DNA from: an uncultured Gammaproteobacteria bacterium
GTDB taxonomy: Bacteria; Patescibacteriota; Microgenomatia; Levybacterales; UBA12049
DNA length: 64,000 nucleotides
Assembly: GCA_964503265.1 (NCBI GenBank)
Contig: CAZCYO010000002.1
Location: 2,604-66,603, forward strand
Direction of reading: 5' to 3'
Each line of letters opens with the position of its first letter. Position 1 is the first letter of the stretch. Position numbers and translations under genes: made by a program. Below are positions 1-22,279 of this stretch, in pieces. The notes under the pieces were generated by a model. It saw only the letters and a list, made by a program, of their open reading frames with translations, was not told the origin of the DNA and ran no database searches.

Positions 1-2211
1 ATGAAAACTCGGCAAACGTTTCAAGAGAAGACTTGATTCGCAGTAAATCACGGAATGTTTTAACGAAATCTGCTCTTTCTTCATCACCTTGCAAGTTATC
101 AATCGCATCAACCGTGGGCACTTTCTCCCTTAACTGAGCAAGTTTATTTTCAAAATCTTTCTTTTGTTCCTCATATGGTTTCTTGAAAACAATTTCTTTT
201 GCGTTTTCATCACCAAAGAGAGCTAAAGCCTTATCTGTAGCGAGTTTCAAATTCCTGAATGAAATTATATTCCCATGAGGCTTGTCTGAGTTGAGAAGCC
301 TGTTTGTACGTGAATAGGCTTGAATAAGACCGTGATAACGTAAATTTTTATCTACATAGAGCGTATTTAGTCTTGGACTGTCAAATCCTGTCAAAAACAT
401 ATTGACTACAAGCACCAAATCAACCTCTTTATTCTTTATTCTTTTTTGCAAATCCCGATAATAGTCATAAAATCGGTCAGTTGAGTAATTTGTTGCAAAT
501 GTTTGGTTGTAATCCTTGATACAGTCTTCCAAAAAGTCCCTAGAGTGTTGATTTCCCGTGGTCCCTTCTCCTGCAAAAATATCTACATCCAACATGTCAG
601 AACCATCATCTTCATTTGCCTGATAAGTAAAAATCGTTGCAAGTCGAAAACCCTCGGACTTCTTTGACTTGAATAGTGAATAATACTTTTTTAGAACATC
701 AATGCTTGTGACAGCAAAAAGTGCATTGAATTTTCCATTTTTTGTCTTTCTCTTCCAGTCAGCGAGTACATAATCAGCAATTTTATTAAGTCGGTCATCA
801 CTTTCCAGTACTTCTTGCGTATTTATTCCCTCAATAAGCGTCTCAGCAAATATGTCAGCGTCTAATGTATCTGGGTCTTTTTGGGTGTACTTACCAACAT
901 ACTCAACAGCGAATCCTAAAACGTTATTATCATCAATTGCATGTGTGATTATGTATTTATGTAGACATTCAATAAATACATCAGCAGTGGTTGCTCCCCC
1001 TACATTGTTATCTGCAAAAATGGGTGTTCCCGTAAATCCAAAGAGCTGTGCTTTTTTGAAAAATCCGGTGATGCGAGTATGAGTTAGCCCAAACTGGCTT
1101 CTATGACACTCGTCAAAGATGATAACGAGCTTTTCATCTCGCAAATATTCAAATTGTGAAAGATATGATTCCTGAGATATGGCAATATCGAGTTTTTGAA
1201 TAGTGGTAACTATCAACTTTCTATTTGGGTCTTTTAACTGAGCTACAAGGTTTCTAGTGTTATCTGTACCATCCACGGAACCATCTGAGAATGAGTTAAA
1301 TTCTTTTGTAGTCTGAATATCCAAGTCTTTTCTATCTACAACAAATAATACTTTTTTAATCTCTGGCATTTGGGAAAGCACTTGACTAGTTTTATAAGAA
1401 GTTAGTGTCTTTCCTGAACCAGTTGTATGCCAAATATACCCGTTCTTATTTGATTCAATGACTCTTTTTTCAATGGCCTTTACTGCATAATACTGGTATG
1501 GACGTAGAACCATAGGGATTTGCATCGATTCAGAGAGGACTATATACTCTGCAATCATTTCTGATACTATGCATTTTTCTAAAAAGACATCTGCAAACTC
1601 ACTTAACCCCGTAATCTTACGATTCTTCTCATCTGTCCAGAAAAATGTTTGTTCAAAAGATTGTCTTGGGTTGTTGGAAAAGTATTTGGTATTTACTCCA
1701 TTTGAAATGACAAATATTTGTATATATTCAAAAAGCGTTCCAGTAAAAGAGTGCTTGTGGTAGCGTTGAATTTGATTGAACGCCTCTTTCATTTCCATCC
1801 CTCGGCGTTTTAGTTCTATCTGTACTAGTGGAAGTCCATTGATAAGCAAAGTGACATCGTAACGGTTCTCATAGCGACCAGACTGGCTTACCTGGTGCGT
1901 TACCTGGTATTCGTTCTTACACCATTTGTCCATGTTGAAGAAACGAATCCAAATGGTACTTCCATCATCCCGAGCAAGCGCGTAACGGTCACGCAAGACT
2001 TTTGCTTTTTGGAAGCGGTCACCTTTCATGAGATGATTGAGGACACGAGAGAATTCCAAATCTGAAAATTGTGTTTGATTGAATTTTTCAAGCTGAGATT
2101 TTAAGTTAGAATTCAGAGCATTTGAATCGGATATTGTCACACTTTCAAACCCAAGTCCGCCAAGCTGTGCTACAAGTTCTTTTTCGAGTTGTAATTCTGA
2201 TTGTGCTGTCA
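1..2211 (-). CDS. hsdR: type I restriction enzyme R subunit (HsdR), N-terminal about 737 codons; 3' part beyond window start
   Basis: Minus-strand frame opens with ATG at 2209-2211 right after hsdS with no stop to position 1; own translation shows helicase motif [12 protein letters not shown] and motif [12 protein letters not shown]; not in ORF track because truncated. Confidence 0.8.
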
Positions 2212-2215
2212 TGTA

Positions 2216-3451
2216 TTAAATAAACATTTTTTGCATAAGTCCTTTTTTCCATTGCTCTGCTAACTTAATTTGCTTGTTCTTAAGGAATACCATTTCCTCA
2301 ATGGCATTTAAAATTATTGCAATCTTTTTTTGTTCTTGCTCTGTAGGGAATGGTACTTCCATTCTCATAAAATCATCTTGCGAAAAACTCAATCTATCAT
2401 ACCGTGCTCCATAATTCGCAATTTTATACATGTACTTATGCCATATTGAAGTTTTAAAATACATCTCAAAGAAATCTAAATTTCCGTCTTTTAATTTCAA
2501 AACAGTATACAGTGGTGACATGATTCCTTGAATTAATTTATTTCGATTAAATGGACCATAGGGTGCCTCGTTAGAGATTCGAGGGTTGTAGACAAAATCA
2601 TCTACATCTACTTTGAAATAGTTAAGTAAATTATTTTGATTCGCTATATCTTTTTCAAAAAAATCCCGTTGATTTATGATTCCTGAAACTGCTGAATTTG
2701 ATAACACATGTTTTATTTTATTATCTCTGTTTCTTTCAGATTTTCTTACAAGAACTTCGTGCAAATATTTTATTTTCCAATCAGGAAAATCTTTACCATT
2801 CTCGTCTTTAAAACGAATTTGTTGGGAGAATATTTTATGCATCATTCCTTTTTTATACTTTTCAAGGGACTCCTTTTGTAAGCGTAAATTCTCAATCCAT
2901 TCATCAATTGAAGATAAAAAAGAAGCGATTTTTTGTTGTTCTTGTAAGCTCGGGAATTTAACTTTAACTGATTTAAGATGTGAAGAATAAAGATGCACTA
3001 CTGCATTACCTTGTGCTAATTTAGCTATATCCTTTTTTTTGCAATTTGAAAGATAATAGGCATAAAACTCACCACAATGTCCGTTAATTCTTAAAACATT
3101 TATGTCTCCACCTAATAATACATCTGATACTTTAAGGCAACTTGTTTTTGCAATATCCAATTCGGTCTCTCCTGAGGATGGAATCAACAAATCATCTATC
3201 ATACTTTTAACTGACGATAAGTTATTCACATTTGTTTTTGATTTAATGTTTTTAATTACTTCACCATAGGTTGTATATAATTCTCCATAACGAATACAGC
3301 TATATTTTCCTTCTTCTGATATATCTTCTTTGGATATTCCATTTCCTTTATGAAAAGTTGCAATATCCCCTAATGATTTTTCTTGCCATTGTTGATTAAA
3401 TTCTAGAAATCGAAGATGTGGATTTTTTATAGCATGTAATTGTGGATTCAT
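2216..3451 (-). CDS. hsdS: type I R-M specificity subunit HsdS (two target-recognition domains)
   Basis: 411 aa; conserved repeats LPSLQEQQKIASFLSSIDEWIENL and PTEQEQKKIAIILNAIEEMVFL flank two variable domains; sits between hsdM and hsdR. Confidence 0.85.
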   Translation of the reverse strand: MNPQLHAIKNPHLRFLEFNQQWQEKSLGDIATFHKGNGISKEDISEEGKYSCIRYGELYTTYGEVIKNIKSKTNVNNLSSVKSMIDDLLIPSSGETELDIAKTSCLKVSDVLLGGDINVLRINGHCGEFYAYYLSNCKKKDIAKLAQGNAVVHLYSSHLKSVKVKFPSLQEQQKIASFLSSIDEWIENLRLQKESLEKYKKGMMHKIFSQQIRFKDENGKDFPDWKIKYLHEVLVRKSERNRDNKIKHVLSNSAVSGIINQRDFFEKDIANQNNLLNYFKVDVDDFVYNPRISNEAPYGPFNRNKLIQGIMSPLYTVLKLKDGNLDFFEMYFKTSIWHKYMYKIANYGARYDRLSFSQDDFMRMEVPFPTEQEQKKIAIILNAIEEMVFLKNKQIKLAEQWKKGLMQKMFI

Positions 3452-3453
3452 AA

Positions 3454-5031
3454 TTAAAAAGGTTTCTCGATAGATAATTCATCGCAAAAAGCAGCAATTT
3501 TATTACGAAGATTTTCTTCTTCTAGGCTCAATTGCTGCACATCTTTAGCAACCGCTTGTATCTCAATTTCAGGCTCTTCTTCAAATGTATCTACATAGCG
3601 AGGGATATTAAGGTTAAATTCATTCTCTTTTATCTCATCTATACTTGCCAAATGTGAATATTTATCAATTTCCTTACGTTCTTTGTAGGATTGAAAAATC
3701 TTTGCTACATTTTCATCAGTAAGATGGTTTTGATTTTTACCTTTATCAAAGTCTTTAGAAGCATCAATAAACATTATGTCATCATCATCTTTGCGACACT
3801 TCTTAAATACCATGATGGTTGCAGGAATACTTGTGCCGTAAAAAAGATTTGACGGTAGTCCTATAACAGCATCTAGATAATTTTGTTTTTCTATTATATA
3901 TTTGCGAATATGTCCCTCGGCACCAGAGCGGAAAAGTACACCATGGGGTAGTACAACTGCCATAGTTCCATGGTCAGCTAGGTGATAAAGCATATGAGTA
4001 ACAAAAGCGTAGTCAGCGGCACTCTTAGGGGCTAATCTTCCATATTGCGAGTATCTTTCGTCTTGAGCTAAAAGAGGGTCGCTATCGCTTTTCCATTCAG
4101 TAGAAAATGGTGGGTTGGCGACAACTGCCTCAGCTTGTAGGTCTACGTGCATATCATCTACTAAAGTATCTCCTTGTCGGATACTAAAGTGGTCGAAGTG
4201 AACGCCATGCAAAATCATGTTCATGCGGGCGAGGTTATATGTTGTAGGATTTAACTCTTGTCCTAAATACATATTGACACTTGTATAGTCACCAATACGA
4301 AGCAGAAGTGAACCTGAACCGCATGTAGGGTCATATACGGACTTTAAACGGGCTTTACCCTCTGTTACTATTTGAGCGAGAAGCCTTGATACTTGGACAG
4401 GAGTATAGAACTCTCCGCCTTTTTTACCAGCCCCGGCAGCAAATTCACCTATGAGGTACTCATACGCATCTCCAAGCAAATCACTTTTTGAGTCTTCTAG
4501 TTGAAAGTCTATCCCGCTAAGTAGGGTAAGCACTTGAACAATAACTTCATTCTTCTTGTTTTCAGTTTTGCCTAATTTGGAACTGGTCAAATCTACATCA
4601 TCAAATAAGCCTTTGAAGTCATCTTCGCTGGCAGTTCCCATAGATGTTTGTTCTATGGCATTAAGGACATTTTTAAGCTCTTCTAATATGAAGGTTTCTT
4701 GCCCTTTAACTTCACCATTTCCTTTTTTAACAAGATATGAAAATAACTCCTTTGGTTTTAAGAAAAAGCCTAAATGCCCAACACATGCTTTTTTTACCTC
4801 TTCAAGAATTGCTTTCCCTTCAGTAGACTCTGCTTCTATTTCTGCAAAGCTATAGTCTTCTTTTGCGAGGAGTTTTTCATCTATATATTTTTCTAACTTT
4901 TCTGAAAGATATTTGTAGAAGATAAAACCAAGAATATAGTTCTTATACTCATCGGCATTCATCTTACCTCTAAGTACATTTGCAACTGCCCACAGTTGTT
5001 TCTCCAATAATTTCTTGTTCTCTTCGGACAT
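3454..5031 (-). CDS. hsdM: type I R-M N6-adenine DNA methyltransferase HsdM
   Basis: 525 aa; NPPF catalytic motif (VVANPPFS); AdoMet motif DPTCGSGSLLL; 3-nt gap to hsdS. Confidence 0.9.
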   Translation of the reverse strand: MSEENKKLLEKQLWAVANVLRGKMNADEYKNYILGFIFYKYLSEKLEKYIDEKLLAKEDYSFAEIEAESTEGKAILEEVKKACVGHLGFFLKPKELFSYLVKKGNGEVKGQETFILEELKNVLNAIEQTSMGTASEDDFKGLFDDVDLTSSKLGKTENKKNEVIVQVLTLLSGIDFQLEDSKSDLLGDAYEYLIGEFAAGAGKKGGEFYTPVQVSRLLAQIVTEGKARLKSVYDPTCGSGSLLLRIGDYTSVNMYLGQELNPTTYNLARMNMILHGVHFDHFSIRQGDTLVDDMHVDLQAEAVVANPPFSTEWKSDSDPLLAQDERYSQYGRLAPKSAADYAFVTHMLYHLADHGTMAVVLPHGVLFRSGAEGHIRKYIIEKQNYLDAVIGLPSNLFYGTSIPATIMVFKKCRKDDDDIMFIDASKDFDKGKNQNHLTDENVAKIFQSYKERKEIDKYSHLASIDEIKENEFNLNIPRYVDTFEEEPEIEIQAVAKDVQQLSLEEENLRNKIAAFCDELSIEKPF

Positions 5032-5164
5032 AACTTTATTGTACTAACTACAAGCTCATTATAGTTGAAATATGGCTATTTAATCAATCAAGCAAAAGCT
5101 ATATTACTTATATATGCCAGTATATTTTGGGGATTCAATCAAGCTTAATTATATAAATTTAACA

Positions 5165-5320
5165 TCATTCTGTTTCTTTTTTCTTCGCTATCCCTCTGGC
5201 TTTTGCCATTACTAATAAATCTAATCTATCTTTCTTTTCAAGAGCTTTCATTGTTCTTTCATAAATTTGCTCTGGAGTTAGCTTTTTAGTATCGAATATC
5301 CCGAGTAATCTCTTTTTCAT
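5165..5320 (-). CDS. small basic hypothetical protein (51 aa), start overlaps upstream stop (ATGA)
   Basis: Own translation MKKRLLGIFDTKKLTPEQIYERTMKALEKKDRLDLLVMAKARGIAKKKETE; below ORF-track size cutoff. Confidence 0.25.
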   Translation of the reverse strand: MKKRLLGIFDTKKLTPEQIYERTMKALEKKDRLDLLVMAKARGIAKKKETE

Positions 5321-5532
5321 TGTATAAAATGATGTTTTATGACTTTTAGTTTTTTGAATGGCTTAAATTCTTCTATATAACCTAATTCAGCAAGTTTTTT
5401 TAATATTGACTGTGCACTTAAGTAAGTAATGCCAAGTTTTCGTTGAATATATGATGCCGTAATGAAATCTTCCGCTATTACTAAATGAACAACTCTATCT
5501 AGCTGAGATTCAATATTGCCTTTTCTTCCCAT
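5317..5532 (-). CDS. small winged-helix protein resembling FtsK gamma domain
   Basis: 71 aa; segment ITASYIQRKLGITYLSAQSILKKLAELGYI resembles FtsK-gamma wHTH consensus (from memory). Confidence 0.4.
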   Translation of the reverse strand: MGRKGNIESQLDRVVHLVIAEDFITASYIQRKLGITYLSAQSILKKLAELGYIEEFKPFKKLKVIKHHFIQ

Positions 5533-5535
5533 AAA

Positions 5536-5883
5536 TTATTGATTCGCCTTAACTTCTTCAATAATCTCCTTCATATCGTCTCCCATCCAATCTATTATTT
5601 CTTCTGCTTGTCCTCTTCTGTAATTAAATTCATCTAGTTTTTTTGATTCTGCTTTAATATCGCAAGTATTTAAATTTGATACACACGCAGTCGCTGTAGT
5701 ATAGGCTTGAGCACAGGAGTCGGCTATTTCTTTTGAGGACTCCATGCTTTTTACTGCATTTGTTAAAATTCTTTTGGTTAGTTTTTTTTGTGAGTTAATC
5801 TCATTTCTCGTAAACGCATATGTGATAATTGAACTTGTAAGAATACAAATTATGGCTAAGATAACTATTTTTTGGTTATTCAT
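5536..5883 (-). CDS. small N-terminally anchored/secreted hypothetical protein
   Basis: 115 aa; N-terminal hydrophobic segment IVILAIICILTSSIITYAF; operon with flanking small genes. Confidence 0.4.
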   Translation of the reverse strand: MNNQKIVILAIICILTSSIITYAFTRNEINSQKKLTKRILTNAVKSMESSKEIADSCAQAYTTATACVSNLNTCDIKAESKKLDEFNYRRGQAEEIIDWMGDDMKEIIEEVKANQ

Positions 5884-6178
5884 TGTTCCTATATGATTCT
5901 TCCTTTTCCATTTCCTCTATGTCTTTTTTAACTTTCTTAGATATTTCTTCATCTTTAGCTCTCCTTTTCCTTGCTTCTTCCTCCAGAGCGGTATAATGCA
6001 TTCTATTAAATTCTCTATAACCTTCTTTTTTACCTCCTATAAAGGCAGACAAGAATAACATTCCAATTCCAAGTATAGATAAAATGCCTTCTGTGCTTCG
6101 TAAAGTGTAGACACATAAAGCTAACCCTCCAAAGAAAAATATTAGAGCCATAATCTCAGTTTGCTTATCAATTTTCAT
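5876..6178 (-). CDS. small membrane hypothetical protein
   Basis: 100 aa; two hydrophobic helices then charged Glu/Lys-rich tail; overlaps downstream gene by 8 nt. Confidence 0.4.
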   Translation of the reverse strand: MKIDKQTEIMALIFFFGGLALCVYTLRSTEGILSILGIGMLFLSAFIGGKKEGYREFNRMHYTALEEEARKRRAKDEEISKKVKKDIEEMEKEESYRNNE

Positions 6179-6294
6179 AAGTATTGGTATAAAAACATAA
6201 TACCCCGAGCAGATTTAATATTCAATAGGAATTAAGGCCAAATGCTCGCTCACGGCTAGTGGAGTATATAGCGCAGAGCTATCAAAATTAGCTC

Positions 6295-6513
6295 ATGAGT
6301 AAAACACCTAAAATCTATGCAAAACTGGGAAGAAAGATTCAAAAGGCCCGACAAGAGAAAGGAATTACCCAGGAAAGACTTGCTGAAATGGCAGACATAT
6401 CAAGGACGCACATGGGACACATTGAACAAGGTCGAAGACAGCCTACTTTGGATGTTGTACAAAAAATCGCAAAAGCATTAAAAATGAAAGCAAACGAACT
6501 TATTCCATTTTAA
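6295..6513 (+). CDS. XRE-family helix-turn-helix transcriptional regulator
   Basis: 72 aa; HTH ITQERLAEMADISRTHMGHIEQGRRQPTLDVVQKIAKAL; divergent from the small-gene operon. Confidence 0.8.
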   Translation: MSKTPKIYAKLGRKIQKARQEKGITQERLAEMADISRTHMGHIEQGRRQPTLDVVQKIAKALKMKANELIPF

Positions 6514-6867
6514 TCATTATAAGTCTTCCAGCTTTTCAGTTAGTAAATAGTTATATTTAGGAATTGCACAGCCTCAATAAACCTTAACAAAAGAGTACTT
6601 TTTGTGTACTTTATTTTGACTTCTTGACAAAAAGTTTTTAGTTGAATAAGGTAAATGATAGGTTGGCATAGTAAGCGTTACGAACCAGAAGACCGTTTTT
6701 GAAAGTTTGGTAAGGATAATACTTTGCCAAAAGTCGTAACGCAACTTGCCAGACTTTCATAAGCGGTTTTTTGTGTTTAAGAGTAGTTGTAAATAGCAAC
6801 TGATTACGAGACAAGAGTTAGGTTTCGTGTTCGGTTGCTTTTTTTGTGGTGAAAGGAGGTGAAAATA

Positions 6868-7089
6868 ATGACGAAATGTACTTTTGAAAAGGCTTTGAGA
6901 ATTGGTTTAGAAGATTATCTAATAAGCGAATTGAAAATAACTAAAGCTAAAGCTAATAAAGCTGATGACATTGTAGGAGATTTAATTGGAGAGGGAGCAG
7001 ATTTGCCACTTTGTAAATGGGCTGATGATATGGAATGGATAGCACCTAGAATAAAAAAATTAATCGAGGTTTGTATGAGTAAGGAATAG
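6868..7089 (+). CDS. hypothetical small protein (73 aa from ATG 6868)
   Basis: Strong SD aaaggagg 8 nt before ATG 6868; ORF track started at upstream GTG 6859. Confidence 0.45.
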   Translation: MTKCTFEKALRIGLEDYLISELKITKAKANKADDIVGDLIGEGADLPLCKWADDMEWIAPRIKKLIEVCMSKE

Positions 7090-7125
7090 AGACTTGAGTA
7101 ATAAATAAGAGCTAAAGTAAGTGTA

Positions 7126-7480
7126 AATTCACGCATGTTGGGCTGTAAATCGAAGAAACATGTACCCTGGCACAATGCCAGCAGTAGGAACTTGGCGTTC
7201 CTAGGTCTTAGAACCTCACGACAGCGTCGAAATGAGTGTATAAAGCAATTTATACATTCGCTTCGGCACTGTAGCGAGGGCAGTAAAAATAAGAGAATAG
7301 CCAGATGTTCACGCGACTGTCATCTGGCGACGCTGTAAAGTCCAATGACGGCTTTGTATAAAGCACTTTACGAAAAGCGTGTTCCTTTAGGGTCATAGAG
7401 AGGCCACCGATGAGGTTTTAGTTTACAGCGAGCTTAATCTTTACCGAGATAAAACGGAATCTTAAAGATGAATTTGTATC
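7126..7480. ncRNA. candidate large structured RNA of unknown class; strand undetermined
   Basis: No credible ORF; GC visibly higher than flanks; perfect hairpins: 10-bp stem with GCAA tetraloop 7235..7258, 8-bp stem 7300..7328 (gccagatg/catctggc), 7-bp 7185..7203 (taggaac/gttccta), 6-bp 7166..7180, C(UUCG)G 7260..7267. Confidence 0.25.
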
Positions 7481-7583
7481 TCCTACAGGGGGACTGACCT
7501 TCTCTTGCTCTGAAAGTTCAATCTCTACTACTAAACAACCTCCATGCCCACATAGTAACCCATATTTGGTAAAATACCCATGA

Positions 7584-8294
7584 ATGAAAATTACTATAAT
7601 TGAATCTAAGGAACACAAATTCACACCTGACGAATACAAATTTCTTCAACTACTAGAAGAAGACTCTGTTTTTGAAAATTTAGTACTCCAAGCAAGAGCT
7701 GTAATAGGAATCCCACCCGAAGGTTTTAATATTAAAGAAGGGCATAATTTAAAAGATGATGCGACTAAAAGACGAATTAAGCTGAGAAAGATTACAATTG
7801 CAATTCGTGGTCTTTATAATCTACCTCCTTACTGGTTGATAATATTGTCTTTCATAATTTACTACAATATTGCAGAGGCAGTAGATAGAAAAAAACTGCC
7901 TCACTTTTATTTTGAGAAGGCTGTTAATTCAGTCACAATTCACATTAAAGAAAACATGTCTATTAGGGAACTAAAGAGACAGATTGATTTAAATAGCGAT
8001 GAGCTTAAATCACTTCTGCAATCATTACCTGGAATACCTCAGATAAAGATTGAAAATATTAAAGTTAAAAAAAGAATTCTTGAACTTAATAAGGCGGGTA
8101 AGAGAGATGCTGAAATCGCTAGAATAATTGAAGAAGAATTTGGAGATAATTTATCTTTCAGTCCAGAGTATTACATAATCAGCATCCTACGTAAAAGATT
8201 CGAAAAGAGTTTAGACATAATTTTAAAGAAAGATGTTGCCAGAGCAAAAAGTAAATTTAAAATAAAATCCCCATCACAACCAATGGCCTCTTAA
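7584..8294 (+). CDS. hypothetical protein with C-terminal HTH-like segment
   Basis: 236 aa; C-terminal KRILELNKAGKRDAEIARIIEEEF resembles resolvase-type HTH; an internal terminator-like hairpin at about 7873..7905 casts doubt on the single-gene model. Confidence 0.4.
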   Translation: MKITIIESKEHKFTPDEYKFLQLLEEDSVFENLVLQARAVIGIPPEGFNIKEGHNLKDDATKRRIKLRKITIAIRGLYNLPPYWLIILSFIIYYNIAEAVDRKKLPHFYFEKAVNSVTIHIKENMSIRELKRQIDLNSDELKSLLQSLPGIPQIKIENIKVKKRILELNKAGKRDAEIARIIEEEFGDNLSFSPEYYIISILRKRFEKSLDIILKKDVARAKSKFKIKSPSQPMAS

Positions 8295-8332
8295 AAACAC
8301 AAAGAATTAGCAACACTTGTTGTTGTCATCTG

Positions 8333-8554
8333 ATGTTTTATTTTCCAGTTCTTATTTTCAGTATCCTTAGAGCAGATATGGATACGAATACTAAATCAAT
8401 TATTAGTGAGGCAGCACAAGAGTTAAAAGAACTTCTCGCAATAGAAAATATATATTTGTCTGATGATGAGGCTATTAAACAATCGATTAGCTTATTAAAT
8501 CTTTTTGGCGCCTTGACACAGGCACCAGAACGGGGGATAAATGAAATTGCTTGA
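8333..8554 (+). CDS. small hypothetical protein upstream of recombinase (possible accessory factor)
   Basis: 73 aa ORF, likely starts at internal Met (MDTNTKSII...); overlaps recombinase start. Confidence 0.3.
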   Translation: MFYFPVLIFSILRADMDTNTKSIISEAAQELKELLAIENIYLSDDEAIKQSISLLNLFGALTQAPERGINEIA

Positions 8555-10163
8555 TTTAGAAATGAGAACTATTGCACCAAAGCTAGAGAAGAAGTATTAC
8601 GTTGAGTATGCCCGTAAATCCTCAGAGTCTGAGGATAGACAGGTTGAATCAATAAACGACCAGTTGAAAGTTTTAGAAGAAGTCAGTTCAATAAGGAATC
8701 TCCAAATAAAGTTTAAGCCCTTTTCAGAATCTCGCTCTGCAAAATCTCCTGGACGGCCAGAATTTAATAGAATGCTAGATGAAATAAACGAAAGAGGTGA
8801 CATTAAAGGCATTATTGTCTGGAAACTCAATAGACTGTTTAGAAACCCTGAGGACGAGGGAAAAATAAGGCAAATGTTATCAGACGGAAGAATTCTTGAA
8901 ATAGTAACGCCTTCTAAAACCTATTACGAAGCTGATAGTGATTTCGCTATGGCAGTTGAAGGTGCTCAAGCTCAAAGATTTATTAGAGATTTAAGGGAAG
9001 ATACAGCACGAGGTGTAAAAAACAAACTTGATAAAGGTATCGCTCCGATTCTTGCACCTCCCGGGTATCGTAATGCAATTGAAATGAGACAAGGAGAAAA
9101 AACAATTGAACCTCACCAGACCCAGTTTACCCTTGTCAGGCAGTTATTTGAAATCTTCATGACGGGTAATTATTCTGTTCAAGGACTACACGCAGTAGCA
9201 GAAGAAATGGGCATCAGAAGCAATAGGGGTAAAATTGTCAGTAAAACACAGCTTTACGAAATGTTAAGAAATCCATTTTATACTGGCATAAGATTTATCT
9301 ACGCTGAAAAGCTCTATACAAATGGAGCACATAAGAGGATGCTTCTCGATGAAGAGTTTGACCTTGTGCAGGATATACTAAGTCGAAGAACTCATCCAAG
9401 GGGTCAAATACACACAAATTTACTGACAGGGCTAATGAAATGTGGTGAGTGCGGAATGAGTATTACTTCCGAAGTAAAAGAAAAGAAGTACAAAAATGGC
9501 AAGTCTCAGGTTTTTGTATATTATCGTTGCACTAAGAAAAAAAATGGTATGAAATGCACCCAACCTTACATAAATGCAAAAGAACTTGAAGAGCAGGTTA
9601 TGGAGTATCTTGATGGGCTTGAATTGTCACCAAAGATTGTCGAATGGACAGTAAAATGGCTAAATGTAATGCACAAGAGTCAGGCTGAAACAAGGATAGT
9701 AAAATACAAAAATATTGAACAAACCTACGAAGAAACGTTAAGAAAATTGGATAGAATTGTTGATTTAGTACTTAGCGGATTATTAGGTGTTGAAGAAGGG
9801 AAAACTAAAAAACAGGAGCTTGAACTGGAGAAGAAAAAACTATCAGAGCAACTTGAGGGGATAAATAATCACGCTGATGATTGGAATACCTTAACTATTG
9901 ATACATTCGACTTTGTAAAAAACATTAAAGAAAGATTTTCTAAGGGAACTATTGAGCAACGCAAAACTATTTTACGTACAATTGGCTCGAACCTAGTGCT
10001 AAATGATAGAAAACTTGCGATTGAGGTTCGTAAACCGTTTGAATTCATTATGAAGGCTACTGAAAAACTTGATGAAGATATTTTGGCTCGAACTCCTGAA
10101 TTGCCTGTTATATCAACCCAGGAGGCCTTTTCGGGTCCGAGTATTAATGTTTTGGGTGGATGA
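8541..10163 (+). CDS. large serine recombinase (integrase/resolvase family with zinc-ribbon domain)
   Basis: 540 aa; catalytic region YVEYARKSSESEDRQVESINDQ (Ser nucleophile); recombinase domain; Cys cluster CGECGMS...YYRCTKKKNGMKC; alternative start at M9 (8565). Confidence 0.9.
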   Translation: MKLLDLEMRTIAPKLEKKYYVEYARKSSESEDRQVESINDQLKVLEEVSSIRNLQIKFKPFSESRSAKSPGRPEFNRMLDEINERGDIKGIIVWKLNRLFRNPEDEGKIRQMLSDGRILEIVTPSKTYYEADSDFAMAVEGAQAQRFIRDLREDTARGVKNKLDKGIAPILAPPGYRNAIEMRQGEKTIEPHQTQFTLVRQLFEIFMTGNYSVQGLHAVAEEMGIRSNRGKIVSKTQLYEMLRNPFYTGIRFIYAEKLYTNGAHKRMLLDEEFDLVQDILSRRTHPRGQIHTNLLTGLMKCGECGMSITSEVKEKKYKNGKSQVFVYYRCTKKKNGMKCTQPYINAKELEEQVMEYLDGLELSPKIVEWTVKWLNVMHKSQAETRIVKYKNIEQTYEETLRKLDRIVDLVLSGLLGVEEGKTKKQELELEKKKLSEQLEGINNHADDWNTLTIDTFDFVKNIKERFSKGTIEQRKTILRTIGSNLVLNDRKLAIEVRKPFEFIMKATEKLDEDILARTPELPVISTQEAFSGPSINVLGG

Positions 10164-10229
10164 CGGGATTCGAACCCGCGACCCTCAGTACCACAAACTG
10201 ATGCTCTAACCAACTGAGCTACAACCACC
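10155..10229 (-). tRNA. tRNA-His (anticodon GTG) with encoded G-1
   Basis: Hand-folded cloverleaf: D stem GCTC/GAGC, anticodon stem TCAGT/ACTGA, loop TTGTGGT, T-loop TTCGAAT, G-1 pairing with discriminator C; no encoded CCA. Confidence 0.85.
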
Positions 10230-10238
10230 ATGTTCATT

Positions 10239-10290
10239 TGATGCTCTAACCAACTGACCCCGATTTAATCGGGGCTGAGCTACAACCACC
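10239..10290 (-). pseudogene. tRNA-His 5'-half fragment (acceptor plus D-arm to start of anticodon stem) carrying a 17-nt palindromic insert in the D-loop
   Basis: Minus strand reads GGTGGTTGTAGCTCAG[CCCCGATTAAATCGGGG]TCAGTTGGTTAGAGCATCA, identical to tRNA-His positions 1-31 apart from the insert, then diverges; 8 nt upstream of the intact tRNA. Confidence 0.55.
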
Positions 10291-10452
10291 AAATTAGCTT
10301 TCCTGAGAAAACTGAACTAAATTATAGCATAATCGTGCGAGAATCCCAAAAAAATACTTATACAGCGAAGATACCTAAACCTTTCATGTAAAATGTCTCA
10401 TACATCCACAACAAGAAGAATATTTTTCCAGTCATATTTATATCCTATAATA

Positions 10453-11025: not shown

Positions 11026-14000
11026 CTAATAGACATGAATAAACTGCTGGTACCGACGTCCACTGAGTGTATTTTCAGCCCGGGCACCAGGTGCCGCTGA
11101 TACTTCCACCATTTCAGCTCCTACACGACTACCTGTTGAATGACATACTACAATCTCTTTTAGACTTGTCACATCAGATGGATCTTTTTTGTAAGCCTGC
11201 AACTTTGTCCGCTCATCAGCTGTTAACATATCCTCAGGCTTTCTCCCATCAAGCACGGCTTCTAAGAAATTAGAATCGTTAGAATGTACTTTTATAGGTT
11301 CTCCAACAATAACTCCTAATTTGCCAAATCGTTCTTTTAAATGTGAACTAATTTCTTGATGATATTTATCACTATTTGTCGTTAAGATATCTTCAAATGC
11401 TATGACAGGAGTACCATCTTTTGTGACATGTACTTTCAGTACTCCTCGTGCCACTTCTTTACCATCTTTCTGAATTGTAATCAATTTTTTATTTCGTGAA
11501 GTTGCGATATCCATGATATATGCATTCTGTTTATTATCCCCATCATAACTCATACAATTAATAAGCTGTTTTGATCGTTGTCCCACTGTTAATAAGTCTT
11601 TGGCATTAGAAGTATCCATAACTGTGATACTCGTACTATTGTTCGCTACTGCTTGCTTCTTTCGCTTCAGCAATCTTACTTTATAGTCCAGTGCTTTTAA
11701 CACAAGAATCTGATCCATCGTCCCACTTTCATCACCATTAGTTTCTAAATTTTTGGCAGACGCAAAGTTACCATGAGGATTTACAACTGACAATGCTTCT
11801 GAAAGTAAGGTAAGCGTATCATCAGTAAAAGTTTTTTCTTCCATAAGTTTAGTGATTTTTGAAAATGCTTGAAGTTGTACTGCTAGTTGTTTAATTTTTA
11901 CCAATCGTGCAGCGTTAGATGCTTTGATAGGAAAATGATGTGATTCAACTACTCCTGCTGGATTTACATCAAGTTCTTTTATAACTGAATCCATTTCCTC
12001 AACAAATGTTTCAGGATTTGTGTGCTGTTGTAATAGTAACGAAACTGTTTCTCTTTCTTTCCATAATGCGGGATTACGAAGCAGGGAAGATGGATTTGCG
12101 ACAACTTCTTCAAATGATGAGTTCATCGCAGCGATATCTCCCATTATATCTGGAATAGTAAATACTTCATTCTGCTGTGTCGCATCATCTGCATTCCATG
12201 CTCGCCAGAAAGCCTCATACTGTTCTGCTTTTTCTGGATTAGATTCAGGATCAAGTGGTTTAAATGGTGTATGACCGATTGTTTCATCGACTTCACCTCT
12301 CCACTGTTTAAAATCTCCCTTAGCGACATGATATGCAACTCCTTTTAAGAGGGGAGTGAGGTTTTCGCGAAATGCTTTCGGGTCAATATCTCGGTGAGGG
12401 TGTTCATAGCGACTTTTCAAAAATAAGAATGGATTGAAATTACCAAATTCTTTATAGACGCCATGTATCTTTTTCATGTGCATTACGAGAGGTGGGTATA
12501 CACTTTTATCAGTCATCCCTAGTACATCTCTGTCATGAGGAGTCAGTTCAAAATATTTGAAAAAGAGAAAAAGTTGCAATTGGTCAGCTGCATTATTCAT
12601 TCGTTCTAAATTTGGGTGATCAACTGCAAGCAATTTATGAAATGCCTGTTTATCAGTAAGTTTTATTGCACTTAATTTTTTAAGCAACTCTTCAAATCCT
12701 TTAGATTTACTCAATTCTGCCTTTTCCATATTTTTCGCCATATCTGAAACTTCTTGTGTCCAATATACCTCTTTTTCTTCCTTCGTCAAGCCAGTCTCTT
12801 TAGACTCATCTGACCCATTCCAAATAGTTTCTTCAGTTTTATCTTTCATAAAATCTGCAGAATATGTTTCGATATACTCTTGCTGTGTTTGTTCATCTTC
12901 TTGAAGTAACTGTGTATAGTCATCAGGAAAATTCTTTTCTACAAATAACCGGGGAGCATCTTTAAATGCATGTGTTTTCGCTTGCTTTATGGCCTTACGA
13001 AGTTCTGTAAGTGTGAGAAATTTATCTGTTGTTTCCAGGCCACGCTCTTTACGATCTTTCTGTATGGCGGGGAGGGTATGTTTCGCATAGTAACTATCTG
13101 TATATGAAAGTTCACGTTGGATAATTTTAAGTAATGGTTGTAATTCTTGAGGGCGAGCAGGATCAACTAAGTCAACGAGCGCTCCAAAATATAACCCTTC
13201 AGTTCCATCCGACGTATTAAAATCGACAAGTTCCTGGATACGAGAAGCTGTTTGTAATAAGTCCTCACGAATCACACCATCTTCAACTACCATTGGAAGC
13301 GTGAAAAAAAAGTCACGCAGGGGCATTTTTAGACCTTTTGCTTTCATCTCTTCGTAAATTCGTGAGATACTCGGATATACTTCATGACCTGCGACATCTA
13401 TGCTTCGATAATACTTAGGAAAAGATTGTAACAACTGTACAGTTTTTTTGAGTGCTACTTTTCGAAGAAATTTATTCTTCGTTTGCTCGATAATTTGTAA
13501 GGGAATATTTAAATCACGAACATCTGGCATACTACCTGCAAGTACAGCATCTAATACTTCACCAAATCGTGCATTATTAACATCTCTGGGTTCATATTTA
13601 TCATCCGCACCACGTGGTGCACCACGTAAATGATGTGAATTTTCGTTATCCAGAAATGTACCGACTTGATCCAAGGGTACTTTCATCGAGTCTAATTTTT
13701 CATATTTTCGTGCAACTCGGGATACAAGTTTCGCTGCATGTTCATTAACAATATACGGAGCGAGATCTCTTTTACGTCTGCCAATGATCGTCTGCATACC
13801 TGGAGTGAGATATTTTGTCGCTTCCGCAAGTATTTCTCCACGGTGACTAGCTTCTTCGGTATGTGCGACAAGGAGAGGATCAAACGTTGAATCATCAGAA
13901 AGTAATCGACCAGCTTGCTGCAAGAATGCTGCTTGGCTTAATCGCTGATTTATTCCATCAACAACAGAATAATTACCATTCATTTCCGCACGATCTCTCA

Positions 14001-14163
14001 CTCCTTCTAAATGATCAATCATACTCTGACTATTCGTTCTAGTAAGAAATGCGACTGCAACTGCACGAGCTTCATCTAGTGAGGCAATTTCTTTAACCCG
14101 TTTATCCACATTCTCATTAAATGTAGATTCCGCAATAAATGGAATTTCGCTCGTTCCCGTCAT
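11026..14163 (-). CDS. large hypothetical cytoplasmic protein (1045 aa), no motif recognised
   Basis: Long uninterrupted ORF; no signal peptide or TM segment; no P-loop, HEXXH or other signature identified by eye. Confidence 0.6.
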   Translation of the reverse strand: MTGTSEIPFIAESTFNENVDKRVKEIASLDEARAVAVAFLTRTNSQSMIDHLEGVRDRAEMNGNYSVVDGINQRLSQAAFLQQAGRLLSDDSTFDPLLVAHTEEASHRGEILAEATKYLTPGMQTIIGRRKRDLAPYIVNEHAAKLVSRVARKYEKLDSMKVPLDQVGTFLDNENSHHLRGAPRGADDKYEPRDVNNARFGEVLDAVLAGSMPDVRDLNIPLQIIEQTKNKFLRKVALKKTVQLLQSFPKYYRSIDVAGHEVYPSISRIYEEMKAKGLKMPLRDFFFTLPMVVEDGVIREDLLQTASRIQELVDFNTSDGTEGLYFGALVDLVDPARPQELQPLLKIIQRELSYTDSYYAKHTLPAIQKDRKERGLETTDKFLTLTELRKAIKQAKTHAFKDAPRLFVEKNFPDDYTQLLQEDEQTQQEYIETYSADFMKDKTEETIWNGSDESKETGLTKEEKEVYWTQEVSDMAKNMEKAELSKSKGFEELLKKLSAIKLTDKQAFHKLLAVDHPNLERMNNAADQLQLFLFFKYFELTPHDRDVLGMTDKSVYPPLVMHMKKIHGVYKEFGNFNPFLFLKSRYEHPHRDIDPKAFRENLTPLLKGVAYHVAKGDFKQWRGEVDETIGHTPFKPLDPESNPEKAEQYEAFWRAWNADDATQQNEVFTIPDIMGDIAAMNSSFEEVVANPSSLLRNPALWKERETVSLLLQQHTNPETFVEEMDSVIKELDVNPAGVVESHHFPIKASNAARLVKIKQLAVQLQAFSKITKLMEEKTFTDDTLTLLSEALSVVNPHGNFASAKNLETNGDESGTMDQILVLKALDYKVRLLKRKKQAVANNSTSITVMDTSNAKDLLTVGQRSKQLINCMSYDGDNKQNAYIMDIATSRNKKLITIQKDGKEVARGVLKVHVTKDGTPVIAFEDILTTNSDKYHQEISSHLKERFGKLGVIVGEPIKVHSNDSNFLEAVLDGRKPEDMLTADERTKLQAYKKDPSDVTSLKEIVVCHSTGSRVGAEMVEVSAAPGARAENTLSGRRYQQFIHVY

Positions 14164-14347: not shown

Positions 14348-15151
14348 CTATTTCTTTTTTAGCATTTCTTTGGTTACTCGAATACTTCTTCCTTTCCCTC
14401 CGAAATCTTCGCATACAAATACTGGTTTTTCAGGTTTACTTAAAGTGGGGGAGTATGTGTAGCCGAGTTCTGCAAAATATACGAGGTCTTCTTTTTTTGT
14501 TATTTTATTCGTAATAAGCCAACGAGCGAATGCTCCTCGAGCGATTTTTGCATGAACGACGACAAAACTTGGCTCATTTGTCCTTGGATTTATTGTTAAA
14601 AAATACGGAGCAACGAGACGATTTGAATCCACATATGGAGTAATTGTTCGGAAATATTCTTCAGCTGCGAGGTTTACGATTAGGCCAGAAGAGGGAAGAC
14701 ACTCAACTATATCTTTTCCCCAGAAATCATATAAATCAGCATATTTTTTATTAGGAAGCGTATATCCCATCTCCAGCCGATATGGTGAGATCCCATCGAA
14801 TGGTCGAATACACCCATACAAACCTGAGAGAATAACAAGTACGCTATCAGCATATTCTCTATCACTTTCTGATAAATCGTTAGCGTGTAGGCCACTGTAA
14901 ATGTCACCTAAAAAACTATCGACTGCTACTGATTGTTTCGTCGGTTCTGTGCTCCACTGAGAAAGTAAGTCGTGTGTTTTCTGGGCGAGAGAAGGGGAGA
15001 CCTCCATACTTTTTATTATTTCTTTCACAGAAAGCGTTCTTATATAGTTTCCAAGTTCCTGTGTTTTAGAGAGAAGTTGTGGCTGTCGCAGTGTTTTACC
15101 GTTATTAGGGACTAACTGCATGGTTTTGGAGGAATGAAGTAAAATAGTCAT
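14348..15151 (-). CDS. yaaA: peroxide stress protein YaaA (UPF0246/DUF328)
   Basis: 267 aa; LSGLYGCIRPFDGISPYRLEMG matches YaaA core LSGLYGxLRPLDxMQPYRLEMG. Confidence 0.85.
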   Translation of the reverse strand: MTILLHSSKTMQLVPNNGKTLRQPQLLSKTQELGNYIRTLSVKEIIKSMEVSPSLAQKTHDLLSQWSTEPTKQSVAVDSFLGDIYSGLHANDLSESDREYADSVLVILSGLYGCIRPFDGISPYRLEMGYTLPNKKYADLYDFWGKDIVECLPSSGLIVNLAAEEYFRTITPYVDSNRLVAPYFLTINPRTNEPSFVVVHAKIARGAFARWLITNKITKKEDLVYFAELGYTYSPTLSKPEKPVFVCEDFGGKGRSIRVTKEMLKKK

Positions 15152-20945: not shown

Positions 20946-21119
20946 AGAAATAAAGAAATCTAGACAATTTGCGTCACCAATTTCTTTTTTCTACTATTCG
21001 CACATTAACAAGATATGGATCAATTCTCTGATAGAGCACAGAGGAAAGAAGAGTAACTCTTTTCTTTTTTCTCAACTCTATCAGAGAGATAGAGGAGGGT
21101 ATATAAGGAGGACATAGTC

Positions 21120-21521: not shown

Positions 21522-21544
21522 TCTACTCCCGAAAGGAGACAGCA

Positions 21545-22189: not shown

Positions 22190-22229
22190 CGATCCATATC
22201 CTGCTTCCACGTAGGGAGCATGTGCATTT

Positions 22230-22257
22230 GGCCCGGATGGATAACACCATCCGGGCC
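22230..22257 (+). terminator. GC-rich hairpin terminator after high-GC ORFs
   Basis: ggcccggatgg-ataaca-ccatccgggcc then T-rich. Confidence 0.5.
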
Positions 22258-22279
22258 TTCTGCGTTATATAAAGACATT

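What the first reader, a model, noticed from the sequence alone, without database searches (positions are those of the whole stretch)
8541..10300. Serine-recombinase island integrated at tRNA-His: recombinase stop overlaps tRNA 3' end
The large serine recombinase gene ends at 10163 while tRNA-His (minus strand) ends at 10155. The final recombinase codons are therefore encoded on the complement of the tRNA acceptor 3' strand. Everything to the left (hypothetical genes, noncoding block, XRE regulator, small-gene cassette, hsdMSR) looks like cargo and continues past the window start. This is a defence-carrying integrative element that uses a serine integrase, rather than the usual tyrosine integrase, at a tRNA.
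Basis: partly seen in the sequence, partly recalled or inferred. Interest (0 to 1): 0.55.

Follow-up and report, generated by a model that had tools for sequence, protein, structure and literature searches.

The report
Serine-integrase island at tRNA-His
A restriction-modification island sits at the 3' end of a tRNA-His gene and carries a large serine recombinase, a tRNA-end lifestyle that reviews assign to tyrosine integrases; its relatives in uncultured candidate-phyla bacteria abut tRNA genes in the same way.

Summary
A 540-aa large serine recombinase (LSR, 8541-10163, +) ends inside a convergent tRNA-His gene (10154/5-10228, -). Its stop codon lies in the acceptor 3' strand.

- In 47 of 78 related loci (49 counting two odd tRNA-His genes that only the Rfam tRNA model detects) the LSR gene runs into the 3' end of a convergent tRNA gene. 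Targets include His, Asn, Arg, Leu, Gly, Gln, Ser, Val and Tyr, and they broadly follow the LSR tree.
- Three relatives have islands of 7-10 kb bounded by a direct repeat of the tRNA 3' end, running up to the T-loop.
- The window's island recurs next to a different tRNA-His with a different right flank.
- A relative has an unoccupied tRNA-His.

The cargo is a type I restriction-modification system. The left end lies outside the window, so attL and attR of this copy are not defined. The crossover, probably in the T-loop, is inferred.

It is the remnant of a separate GIY-YIG cassette.

Verdict: a new variant of a known kind, of moderate to high interest.

The parts
2..2212 (-). hsdR, type I restriction subunit. 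Only the N-terminal 737 codons are present; the gene runs off the window start. Island cargo.
   Evidence: Pfam HSDR_N, ResIII, SWI2_SNF2, T1R_D3-like and EcoR124_C. It is 97.5% nt identical to L001:1372-3628.
2216..3451 (-). hsdS, specificity subunit. Island cargo.
   Evidence: Pfam Methylase_S. It is the most divergent part between the window, L001 and L004.
3454..5031 (-). hsdM, methylase subunit. Island cargo.
   Evidence: Pfam HsdM_N and N6_Mtase.
5317..6178 (-). Three small island genes: a 71-aa FtsK-gamma-like winged helix protein, a 115-aa protein and a 100-aa membrane protein.
   Evidence: The same three genes occur in the same order in L001.
6295..6513 (+). XRE/HTH_3 regulator of the island.
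   Evidence: Pfam HTH_3, E = 1e-15. PHROGs transcriptional repressor/regulator families. A gene at the equivalent position exists in L001, L002 and L028.
7584..8294 (+). 236-aa island protein of unknown function.
   Evidence: No Pfam, PHROGs or NCBIfam match. A 240-aa ORF occupies the same position in L001, but nucleotide similarity there is only partial.
8378..8554 (+). Conserved 58-aa ORF that overlaps the LSR start (ORF call 8333-8554; probable start at M16). Candidate accessory protein or directionality factor. This role is inferred.
   Evidence: An alignable ORF of about 45-69 aa precedes or overlaps the LSR start in 18 of 19 further tRNA-His-clade loci where an upstream ORF was found, whatever the cargo. 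The shared motif is approximately EFK..Y...G.ELSDEEA....LLQLF. There is no family match.
8541..10163 (+). Large serine recombinase (integrase) of the island.
10154..10172 (.). Proposed island-borne copy of the tRNA-His 3' end: acceptor 3' strand, T-stem 3' strand and part of the T-loop. This would be the P arm and core of the att site. The proposed crossover lies in the T-loop, about 10168-10172. Inferred.
   Evidence: By analogy with the identity blocks of L016, L028 and L075, which all run from the tRNA 3' end to T-loop positions 57-59.
10154..10228 (-). tRNA-His(GUG), the integration target. It is intact and has an encoded G-1 at 10229.
   Evidence: The U5.U68 mismatch is native, because it is also present in the unoccupied L106 gene.
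10229..10291 (-). Not part of the LSR island. Remnant of a GIY-YIG cassette, made of a 10-nt spacer, a copy of tRNA nt about 12-31 (10239-10257), the palindrome CCCCGATTTAATCGGGG (10258-10274) and a copy of tRNA nt -1..16 (10275-10291).

Best explanation
The region is the right end of an integrative genomic island of at least 11 kb in a CPR (Microgenomates-like) bacterium. The island's integrase is a large serine recombinase, and its attachment site is the 3' part of the tRNA-His gene.

Proposed mechanism:
1. The excised element carries, at and just past the 3' end of the LSR gene, a copy of the last roughly 17-20 nt of tRNA-His: acceptor 3' strand, T-stem 3' strand and the start of the T-loop.
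2. The LSR dimer pair synapses this attP with the chromosomal tRNA-His gene (attB) and exchanges strands at a 2-bp core, probably in the T-loop.
3. The island-borne copy replaces the displaced native 3' end, so the tRNA stays intact. The native 3' fragment ends up at the far (left) end of the island.
4. Because attP overlaps the end of the gene, the last LSR codons (…V/L-G-G-stop) are the complement of the tRNA's CCACC.
5. The island carries a type I restriction-modification system as cargo, plus an XRE regulator and a conserved small ORF next to the LSR that may control directionality.

Shown: gene identities, the overlap, the family-wide LSR-tRNA coupling, repeat-bounded islands in relatives, the same island in another genomic context, and an unoccupied site in a relative.

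Inferred: the crossover position, the present-day activity of this copy, and the role of the small ORF.
For: 1. Full LSR architecture. R25, S27, R98, R101 and the four zinc-ribbon cysteines C301, C304, C330 and C339 are invariant across 41 homologs.
2. The LSR end overlaps a convergent tRNA in 47 of 78 related loci, all in the same orientation, P about 1e-87. Two more are recovered by Rfam.
3. In an NJ tree the window's LSR lies in a clade that is entirely tRNA-His-associated apart from one His-like tRNA with a GCG anticodon. Other clades go with Asn, Leu, Arg, Gly and other tRNAs.
4. Direct repeats of the tRNA 3' end bound islands in three relatives:
   - L016: 19 nt, 10.27 kb. No other recombinase was found among the nine largest island ORFs scanned.
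   - L028: 15 + 14 nt, 7.1 kb.
   - L075: tRNA-Asn, 16 nt, 10.4 kb.
5. Window 1-10231 is collinear with L001 and L004. L001 has a different tRNA-His sequence and a different right flank, and homology stops at the tRNA 5' end.
6. L106, a relative with 70-75% nt identity in shared genes, has a 95% identical tRNA-His with no LSR and no repeat. Similarity to the window begins at the tRNA 3' end.
7. No tyrosine integrase or transposase was found in the visible 10 kb, nor in the L001 gene table.
Against: - The left end of this island is outside the window, so its own displaced tRNA fragment, attL and attR are unseen.
- Only 3-4 of the roughly 25 related loci with at least 7 kb of left flank show a repeat within reach. 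The others are either longer than 10 kb or lack a long repeat.
- The tRNA 3' part is identical in the occupied window and in the unoccupied L106, so the crossover cannot be mapped here.
- No circular junction or empty-site read was seen. The Logan contig simply breaks at 10134.
- hsdR is 97.5% identical to L001 while the LSR module is only about 72% identical at the nucleotide level. This shows cargo exchange by homologous recombination rather than whole-island transfer.
- L029, a clade member, has ...TTGGGGT followed by non-tRNA sequence. That would fit a crossover at the very 3' end rather than in the T-loop.
Confidence: 0.8

Rival explanations
1. Whole-tRNA carrier model. The island brings a complete tRNA-His gene of its own (10154-10228 plus the 10-nt spacer) and inserted into the native tRNA-His at about nt 31. 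The native 5' part would then be the fragment at 10239-10291, and native nt 32-76 would sit at the unseen left end. The crossover would be a minimal core of a few bp, as is typical of serine integrases.
For: The native upstream (promoter) region is attached to the distal fragment, not to the full tRNA, as the alignment with L106 shows. LSRs normally need only a 2-bp identical core and usually disrupt their targets (review PMC5704250).
Against: - In L002 and L033 the same fragment-plus-hairpin architecture encloses an intact GIY-YIG ORF. The palindrome in L033 is nearly identical to the window's, although the two LSRs are only 43% identical. This points to a separate cassette.
- L001, L004, L006 and L028 have the LSR but no 5' fragment.
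- The displaced fragments seen in L016, L028 and L075 are 3'-terminal pieces that end at the T-loop or at nt 44, not at nt 32.
Confidence: 0.1
2. Fossil or domesticated arrangement. The LSR and its neighbours were fixed next to tRNA-His long ago and are inherited vertically. The recombinase no longer moves anything, or it has another role such as inversion or resolution.
For: - The LSR module is only about 72-79% nt identical between the window, L001 and L004.
- In each locus the tRNA-derived overlap matches that host's own acceptor stem, as expected for long co-residence.
- No excision product was observed.
Against: - The ORF is intact with all catalytic and zinc-binding residues.
- Cargo differs completely between close LSRs: hsdRMS in the window, Prim-Pol/AAA_25 in L002 and DNA methylases in L016.
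- Presence and absence vary between relatives (L106).
- Islands with exact 15-19-nt repeats exist.
- hsdR is 97.5% identical across two hosts with clearly different tRNA-His genes.
Confidence: 0.08
3. Coincidental adjacency or ORF over-extension. tRNA genes are general hot spots, the LSR merely happens to lie there, and the overlap only reflects where the first stop codon falls.
For: The last roughly 35 residues of the LSR are poorly conserved. The amount of read-through into the tRNA varies from 10 to 172 nt between loci.
Against: - 47 of 47 tRNAs are in the same convergent orientation, at a fixed distance from the conserved LSR core, across 34-100% protein identity.
- The tRNA identity broadly follows the LSR phylogeny.
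Confidence: 0.02

Closest known systems
Tyrosine-integrase genomic islands and prophages in tRNA/tmRNA genes (Islander-type; e.g. P4-like, NBU1, pSAM2)
   Same: - The integrase gene lies next to an intact tRNA.
- The element supplies a replacement for the tRNA 3' part.
- The displaced 3' fragment forms a direct repeat at the far end.
- The T-loop is one of the known crossover sublocations (own knowledge: Williams 2002).
- The cargo consists of defence or accessory genes.

The reviews and the database paper describe this as the tyrosine-integrase pattern (PMC4383910 abstract; PMC5704250).
   Different: The recombinase here is a serine, not a tyrosine, enzyme. The chemistry is therefore different: concerted double-strand breaks with a 2-bp overhang and subunit rotation, no Holliday junction and no arm-type sites. 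This follows from established knowledge of LSRs. The integrase gene is convergent with the tRNA and physically overlaps it.
SCCmec cassette chromosome recombinases CcrA/B/C
   Same: These are large serine recombinases that insert an island at the extreme 3' end of a conserved housekeeping gene (rlmH/orfX) without inactivating it (own knowledge).
   Different: The target is a protein-coding gene, not a tRNA. The window's LSR scores 79.5 bits against CcrB and 50 bits against CcrC, where the cut-off is 900, so it is not a member. In SCC the ccr genes are internal to the element, not at the junction.
Listeria phage A118 / LI serine integrase (PDB 4KIS, 6DNW) and other phage LSRs (phiC31, Bxb1, TP901-1)
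   Same: Same three-domain architecture. The best solved-structure match is the A118 recombinase and zinc-ribbon domains, E = 3e-8. PHROGs places the window's protein in the integrase family phrog_95, E = 7e-70.
   Different: - At most 26% identity to any LSR in 50,697 phage records.
- Per a review of mobilizable elements, site-specific serine recombinases insert within genes and disrupt them, with very short repeats (PMC5704250); characterised phage LSRs such as A118, which inserts in comK, behave likewise (own knowledge).
- Here the target is a tRNA 3' end, the tRNA is restored, and the repeats are 15-19 nt.
Myxophage Mx8 IntP (own knowledge, not checked here)
   Same: attP lies within the 3' end of the integrase gene and the target is a tRNA gene (tRNA-Asp), so the integrase C-terminus is tied to the att site.
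   Different: Mx8 IntP is a tyrosine recombinase, and integration changes its C-terminus. In the window the stop codon lies inside the presumed island-borne segment, so the protein should be the same in both states.
Tycheposons and cryptic integrative elements of Prochlorococcus
   Same: Small cargo-carrying or replicative islands at tRNA genes. A minority (27 of 937) encode a large serine recombinase instead of a tyrosine recombinase (bioRxiv 10.1101/2020.12.28.424599).
   Different: The host phylum is different. The paper does not describe LSR-tRNA overlap or an LSR clade dedicated to tRNA genes in the passages read.

Membership tests
Large serine recombinase (serine integrase) | N-terminal resolvase catalytic domain with the catalytic serine and the conserved arginines | tested here: met
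   Pfam Resolvase at residues 21-166. Y23, R25, S27, Q34, R98, L99 and R101 are invariant in 41 homologs.
Large serine recombinase (serine integrase) | Recombinase domain followed by a zinc-ribbon domain with four cysteines; total length about 450-700 aa | tested here: met
   Pfam Recombinase at 198-283 and Zn_ribbon_recom at 294-357; 540 aa. C301, C304, C330 and C339 are invariant. Match to the A118 integrase C-terminal domain.
Large serine recombinase (serine integrase) | Short attP and attB (about 40-50 bp) with a 2-bp crossover core, and no requirement for long homology | tested here: inconclusive
   Relatives show identity blocks of 15-19 nt that end in the T-loop. These are longer than usual for LSRs, and the core dinucleotide cannot be located from sequence alone.
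Large serine recombinase (serine integrase) | Directionality controlled by a separate RDF protein | not testable with these tools
   A conserved ORF of about 50 aa precedes the LSR in the His clade. It is a candidate only.
tRNA-integrated genomic island (Islander definition) | Integrase gene inside the island, next to an intact tRNA gene | tested here: met
tRNA-integrated genomic island (Islander definition) | Displaced tRNA fragment (direct repeat) marking the other end | tested here: inconclusive
   No copy of the tRNA 3' part exists in window 1-10153, and collinearity with L001 and L004 puts the left end left of position 1. The feature is met in relatives L016, L028 and L075.
tRNA-integrated genomic island (Islander definition) | Presence/absence polymorphism: the same tRNA unoccupied in relatives, and the same island in other contexts | tested here: met
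   Unoccupied tRNA-His in L106. The same island is at tRNA-His in L001 with a different right flank.
tRNA-integrated genomic island (Islander definition) | Integrase of the tyrosine recombinase family (the usual case) | tested here: not met
   No Phage_integrase domain in the visible island. The only recombinase is a serine enzyme.
SCC-type Ccr recombinases / XisF | Score above the NCBIfam equivalog cut-off | tested here: not met
   XisF 90 bits (cut-off 375), CcrB 79.5 (900) and CcrC 50 (900).
Type I restriction-modification system (cargo) | hsdR, hsdS and hsdM present together | tested here: met
   hsdR is truncated only by the window edge; the full 932-aa gene is present in L001 and L004.

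The most novel reading that the evidence does not exclude
The window's recombinase belongs to a large, so far undescribed radiation of large serine recombinases in CPR/Patescibacteria. These have converged on the classic tyrosine-integrase lifestyle: each subclade recognises the 3' half of one tRNA species (His, Asn, Arg, Leu, Gly, Gln, Ser, Val, Tyr), carries a replacement tRNA end fused to its own stop codon, and moves small defence, replication or satellite-like islands. Such enzymes would be cofactor-light serine integrases whose natural landing pads are highly conserved tRNA genes. In addition, the same tRNA-His gene is hit from the 5' side by an unrelated GIY-YIG cassette, so the gene would be a mosaic of three origins.
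Probability: 0.5. Interest if true: 0.75.

Novelty: new variant of a known kind. Interest (0 to 1): 0.62.

Why it matters
The reviews read here treat integration into the 3' end of tRNA genes as the signature of tyrosine integrases. They describe serine integrases as inserting inside, and usually disrupting, protein-coding genes with only a few identical bases (PMC5704250; PMC4383910 abstract). A whole clade of serine integrases that targets tRNA genes and repairs them would show that the "tRNA landing pad with gene restoration" strategy evolved independently on a different catalytic scaffold.

It also bears on how the very small, streamlined genomes of candidate-phyla bacteria acquire and swap defence systems: hsdR is 97.5% identical between two hosts with different tRNA-His genes.

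Practically, serine integrases are the preferred genome-engineering recombinases. Enzymes whose natural attB is a conserved tRNA segment could integrate into many genomes without a pre-installed site.

Tried and rejected
1. Chimeric-tRNA signature. I suspected that the U5.U68 mismatch in the window's acceptor stem marked a junction between a host 5' strand and an island 3' strand. This was rejected. The unoccupied L106 tRNA-His has the same mismatch. LSR-adjacent tRNAs also have no excess of non-Watson-Crick acceptor pairs: 15 of 58 against 23 of 67 controls, Fisher P = 0.33.

2. Fetching the window's own contig to see the left end.
   - Exact-protein look-ups of the LSR failed.
   - The hsdS and 1045-aa proteins returned only 2.7-kb and 4.2-kb Logan contigs.

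3. Finding closer empty-site relatives through the right-flank 1045-aa protein. It is an orphan with no homolog except itself.

4. Searching the window and the 10-kb left flanks of all loci for the tRNA 3' repeat. Only L016, L028, L075 and a degenerate L053 gave one.

5. Looking for an excised circular form in IMG/VR. Only two distant loci were found, and neither is a junction. L029 may be one but is too short to tell.

6. Literature. No paper in the searchable library describes LSR integration at tRNA genes in CPR. The TIGER paper that might tabulate integrase type against target (PMC7192596) is not held.

7. Base composition does not set the island apart: GC is 0.30-0.39 in the island against 0.37-0.43 in the flank.
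Full report
**1. The observation**

ARAGORN finds tRNA-His(GUG) at 10154-10228 on the minus strand. The Rfam tRNA model places it at 10155-10228 with 65.5 bits. The ORF 8541-10163 on the plus strand encodes 540 aa with Pfam Resolvase, Recombinase and Zn_ribbon_recom domains in the canonical order of a large serine recombinase (LSR).

The sequence ends ...aat gtt ttg ggt gga TGA, with the stop at 10161-10163. The last codons are therefore the complement of the acceptor 3' strand, the discriminator and one further base of the tRNA. The overlap is 9-10 nt.

A second, independent assembly of the same sample (Logan SRR12487046) reproduces this junction and the sequence to its right exactly.

**2. 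Is the recombinase likely to be functional?**

In an alignment of 41 homologs at 44-100% identity, several residue groups are invariant:
- the catalytic-pocket residues Y23, R25, S27 and Q34;
- the R98-L99-x-R101 motif;
- the four zinc-ribbon cysteines C301, C304, C330 and C339.

The consensus also ends in ...GG.

The protein is remote from characterised enzymes:
- The best solved structure is the C-terminal domain of the A118 integrase, E = 3e-8.
- NCBIfam XisF, CcrB and CcrC score far below their cut-offs.
- No LSR in 50,697 phage records exceeds 26% identity.

**3. The pairing with a tRNA is a property of the whole clade**

I collected 103 related loci in three ways: exact look-ups of homologs, a genome scan (titles naming Levybacteria, Gottesmanbacteria, Woesebacteria and the Microgenomates group) and scans of viral and metagenome contigs.

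- Of 78 loci with a complete LSR C-terminus and at least 200 nt downstream, 47 have a tRNA gene beginning within 120 nt of the end of the LSR alignment.
- All 47 are on the opposite strand. In 46 the LSR stop codon lies inside the tRNA, with an overlap of 10-172 nt. In L050 the frame meets no stop before the contig ends.
- The tRNAs are His 25, Asn 10, two each of Ser, Leu, Arg, Gly and Gln, and one each of Tyr and Val.
- Against the tRNA density of the same loci, the binomial probability is about 1e-87.
- Two further loci (L012, L015) have a tRNA-His with an odd T-loop that ARAGORN misses but Rfam detects. One locus (L100) has a group I intron abutting the LSR end.

In a neighbour-joining tree, the window's LSR sits in a clade of about 27 members. 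All are tRNA-His-associated except L010, whose tRNA looks like tRNA-His with a GCG anticodon. The sister groups go with Leu and Arg, and a second large clade goes with Asn, His, Ser, Gly, Gln, Val and Tyr.

**4. Evidence that these are integrative islands**

(a) Repeat-bounded islands in relatives.
- In the complete Woesebacteria chromosome (L016), the 19 nt TTGGGGTGGTCGACGGGAT occur at 11566-11584 and again at 1299-1317. They correspond to the tRNA 3' end up to the T-loop. The enclosed 10.27 kb carries two DNA methylases, a GIY-YIG gene and a protease. No other recombinase was found among the nine largest island ORFs scanned.
- L028 has a 7.1-kb island bounded by a displaced copy of tRNA-His nt 44-76 (15 + 14 identical nt, interrupted by a 22-nt hairpin).
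- L075 has a 10.4-kb island at tRNA-Asn with a 16-nt repeat.
- L053 has a degenerate repeat.
- In L016 and L075 the identity block ends inside the T-loop, at positions 57-59. In L028 the first block also ends there and identity resumes after the hairpin, reaching nt 44.

(b) The same island in another context. Window 1-10231 is collinear with L001:1372-11710 and L004:1516-11690. The L001 host has a clearly different tRNA-His and a different right flank: Rhomboid, PMT_2 and others, against DUF488 and an orphan 1045-aa gene in the window. Homology ends at the 5' end of the tRNA. Identity is mosaic: hsdR is 97.5% identical, the hsdM-to-regulator region is 87%, and the LSR module is 72%.

(c) An unoccupied site. 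L106 is a relative with 70-75% nt identity and collinearity in shared genes. It has a 95% identical tRNA-His with an acetyltransferase gene, not an LSR, downstream and no repeat. Similarity to the window starts at the tRNA 3' end.

(d) Variable cargo. Cargo differs completely among close LSRs: type I restriction-modification in the window, L001 and L004, Prim-Pol/AAA_25 in L002, methylases in L016, and primase plus terS-like genes in L022.

**5. Anatomy of the window's island**

From left to right:
- hsdR, cut by the window edge;
- hsdS and hsdM;
- three small genes;
- an XRE regulator;
- a 76-aa ORF and a 236-aa ORF of unknown function;
- a conserved 58-aa ORF that overlaps the LSR start;
- the LSR;
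- the tRNA.

The small ORF is alignable across 18 of 19 further His-clade loci where an upstream ORF was found, whatever the cargo. It therefore belongs to the integration module. A role as directionality factor is only an inference.

The left end is not in the window. Homology between L001 and L004 continues at least about 950 nt beyond the point that corresponds to window position 1. The island is thus at least 11 kb.

**6. Mechanism**

The best-supported model is as follows.
- attP overlaps the 3' end of the LSR gene and contains a copy of the last 17-20 nt of tRNA-His.
- Recombination with the chromosomal tRNA-His, probably at a dinucleotide in the T-loop (window about 10168-10172), joins the native 5' two-thirds of the tRNA to the island-borne 3' end.
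- The native 3' end is left at the far side of the island.

This explains three things: the fixed convergent orientation; the ...GG-stop ending, which is the complement of CCACC; and the fact that in each locus the overlap matches that host's own acceptor stem.

Because the window's stop codon lies within the presumed island-borne segment, the protein should be identical in the integrated and excised states.

The T-loop position is inferred from three relatives only. L029 hints at a crossover at the very 3' end in one lineage. I put about 0.45 on the T-loop specifically and 0.8 on the overall model.

**7.

Immediately upstream of the tRNA (10229-10291) lie a 10-nt spacer and a partial copy of tRNA nt -1..31. 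The copy is interrupted in the D-loop by the 17-nt palindrome CCCCGATTTAATCGGGG with a 4-nt duplication.

Alignment with L106 shows this as a 61-nt insertion inside an otherwise continuous tRNA. The native upstream region is attached to the distal fragment.

The same architecture, with an intact GIY-YIG ORF of about 85 aa between fragment and tRNA, occurs in two other places:
- L002/L003;
- L033, where the palindrome is nearly identical (CCCCGATCAGATCGGGG with a 4-nt duplication) although the LSR is only 43% identical.

The motif occurs nowhere else in the window or in the other loci.

I read this as the decayed remnant of a separate GIY-YIG cassette that inserts into tRNA genes from the 5' side and brings a replacement 5' part.

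It raises a rival for the LSR island, namely that the island carries a whole tRNA and split the native gene at nt 31. I rate that at 0.1, because LSR loci without the fragment are common and the displaced fragments seen elsewhere are 3'-terminal.

**8. Comparison with what is known, and novelty**

The island works like a classical tRNA-integrated island, but the enzyme is a serine recombinase.

The review read here states that 3' ends of tRNA genes are targets of tyrosine recombinases. It also states that site-specific serine recombinases insert within genes, disrupt them and leave very short repeats (PMC5704250; see also the PMC4383910 abstract).

The nearest functional analogue among LSRs is SCCmec Ccr, which inserts at the 3' end of rlmH (own knowledge), but the window's protein fails that family's score cut-off. 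A minority of Prochlorococcus integrative elements encode LSRs.

I found no description of a tRNA-dedicated LSR clade or of CPR examples. Large island databases may already contain such cases, and the key paper was not available.

I therefore file this as a new variant of a known kind, with interest 0.62.

Noticed in passing
window 10229-10291; also L002 10672-10975, L033 1502-1808, L105 4041-4057: A partial 5' copy of tRNA-His is interrupted in the D-loop by a 17-20-nt GC-rich palindrome (window CCCCGATTTAATCGGGG, L033 CCCCGATCAGATCGGGG, each with a 4-nt duplication). In L002 and L033 an intact GIY-YIG ORF of about 85 aa lies between the fragment and the full tRNA, and its stop lies inside the tRNA in L002 and 2 nt upstream of it in L033. 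It looks like a small mobile GIY-YIG cassette that targets tRNA genes from the 5' side. In the window the ORF has been lost.
   Followed up: partly
L028 4453-4507: The displaced 3' fragment of tRNA-His at the far end of this island carries a 22-nt hairpin insertion (tccgcctttggcgga) exactly in the T-loop. This mirrors the D-loop hairpins of the 5' fragments. The origin is unexplained.
   Followed up: no
L005 11616-11667, L012 9141-9212, L015 11617-11688: The LSR-adjacent tRNA-His genes in these three loci have a non-canonical T-loop (GGCAGCA or GGCGGCA instead of TTCGAAT). ARAGORN misses all three. Rfam scores L012 at 50 bits and L015 at 44 bits; L005 is cut by the contig end and was not searched. 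It is unknown whether they are functional.
   Followed up: partly
L010 11585-11658: An LSR that is 60% identical to the window's abuts a tRNA that looks like tRNA-His. Its anticodon is GCG (Arg), it has no G-1, and it has an acceptor-stem mismatch. It may be a decayed or reassigned tRNA-His.
   Followed up: no
window 1-2257 vs 7888-10231, compared with L001: Identity across the same island is mosaic: hsdR is 97.5% nt identical to L001, but the LSR module is only 72%. This implies recent exchange of the restriction cargo between islands whose integration modules are old and host-adapted. hsdS is the most divergent part.
   Followed up: partly
window 11026-14163 (-): A 1045-aa ORF right of the tRNA has no Pfam domain and no homolog other than itself among 5.8 billion proteins. 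It is an orphan gene between tRNA-His and tRNA-Arg. L106 has no nucleotide match to it there.
   Followed up: partly
window 14348-15151 (-): The YaaA/DUF328 protein has homologs at 55-58% identity in Micromonospora and other Actinobacteria, as well as in Saccharimonadales. This is unusually high for such distant phyla and suggests possible horizontal transfer.
   Followed up: no
window 10150-10156 vs L106 8369-8374: The unoccupied tRNA-His of L106 encodes the 3' CCA (CCACC-CCA). The occupied window gene reads CCACC-CAA, so CCA is not encoded. This is consistent with the 3' terminus having been replaced by island sequence.
   Followed up: partly
L100 2255-2517 (-): A group I intron (Rfam, 79.7 bits) begins right where a distant LSR ends. 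Presumably an intron-containing tRNA gene is the target there.
   Followed up: no
L002 15473-15736 (-): A second GIY-YIG ORF sits between tRNA-Leu and tRNA-Pro without any tRNA duplication. Another lies at the left edge of the L016 island (1323-1604). Small GIY-YIG genes seem to be habitual neighbours of tRNA genes in these genomes.
   Followed up: partly
window 21000-22500: GC content rises to 0.50-0.54, against about 0.37 elsewhere in the first 30 kb. There is no Rfam hit in this stretch. Not examined.
   Followed up: no
L105 end (= window 10134): The Logan contig of the same sample breaks 20 nt inside the LSR 3' end, just beyond the tRNA. This may reflect an assembly-graph branch at the island junction, from strain heterogeneity or from related islands in the sample.
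   Followed up: no
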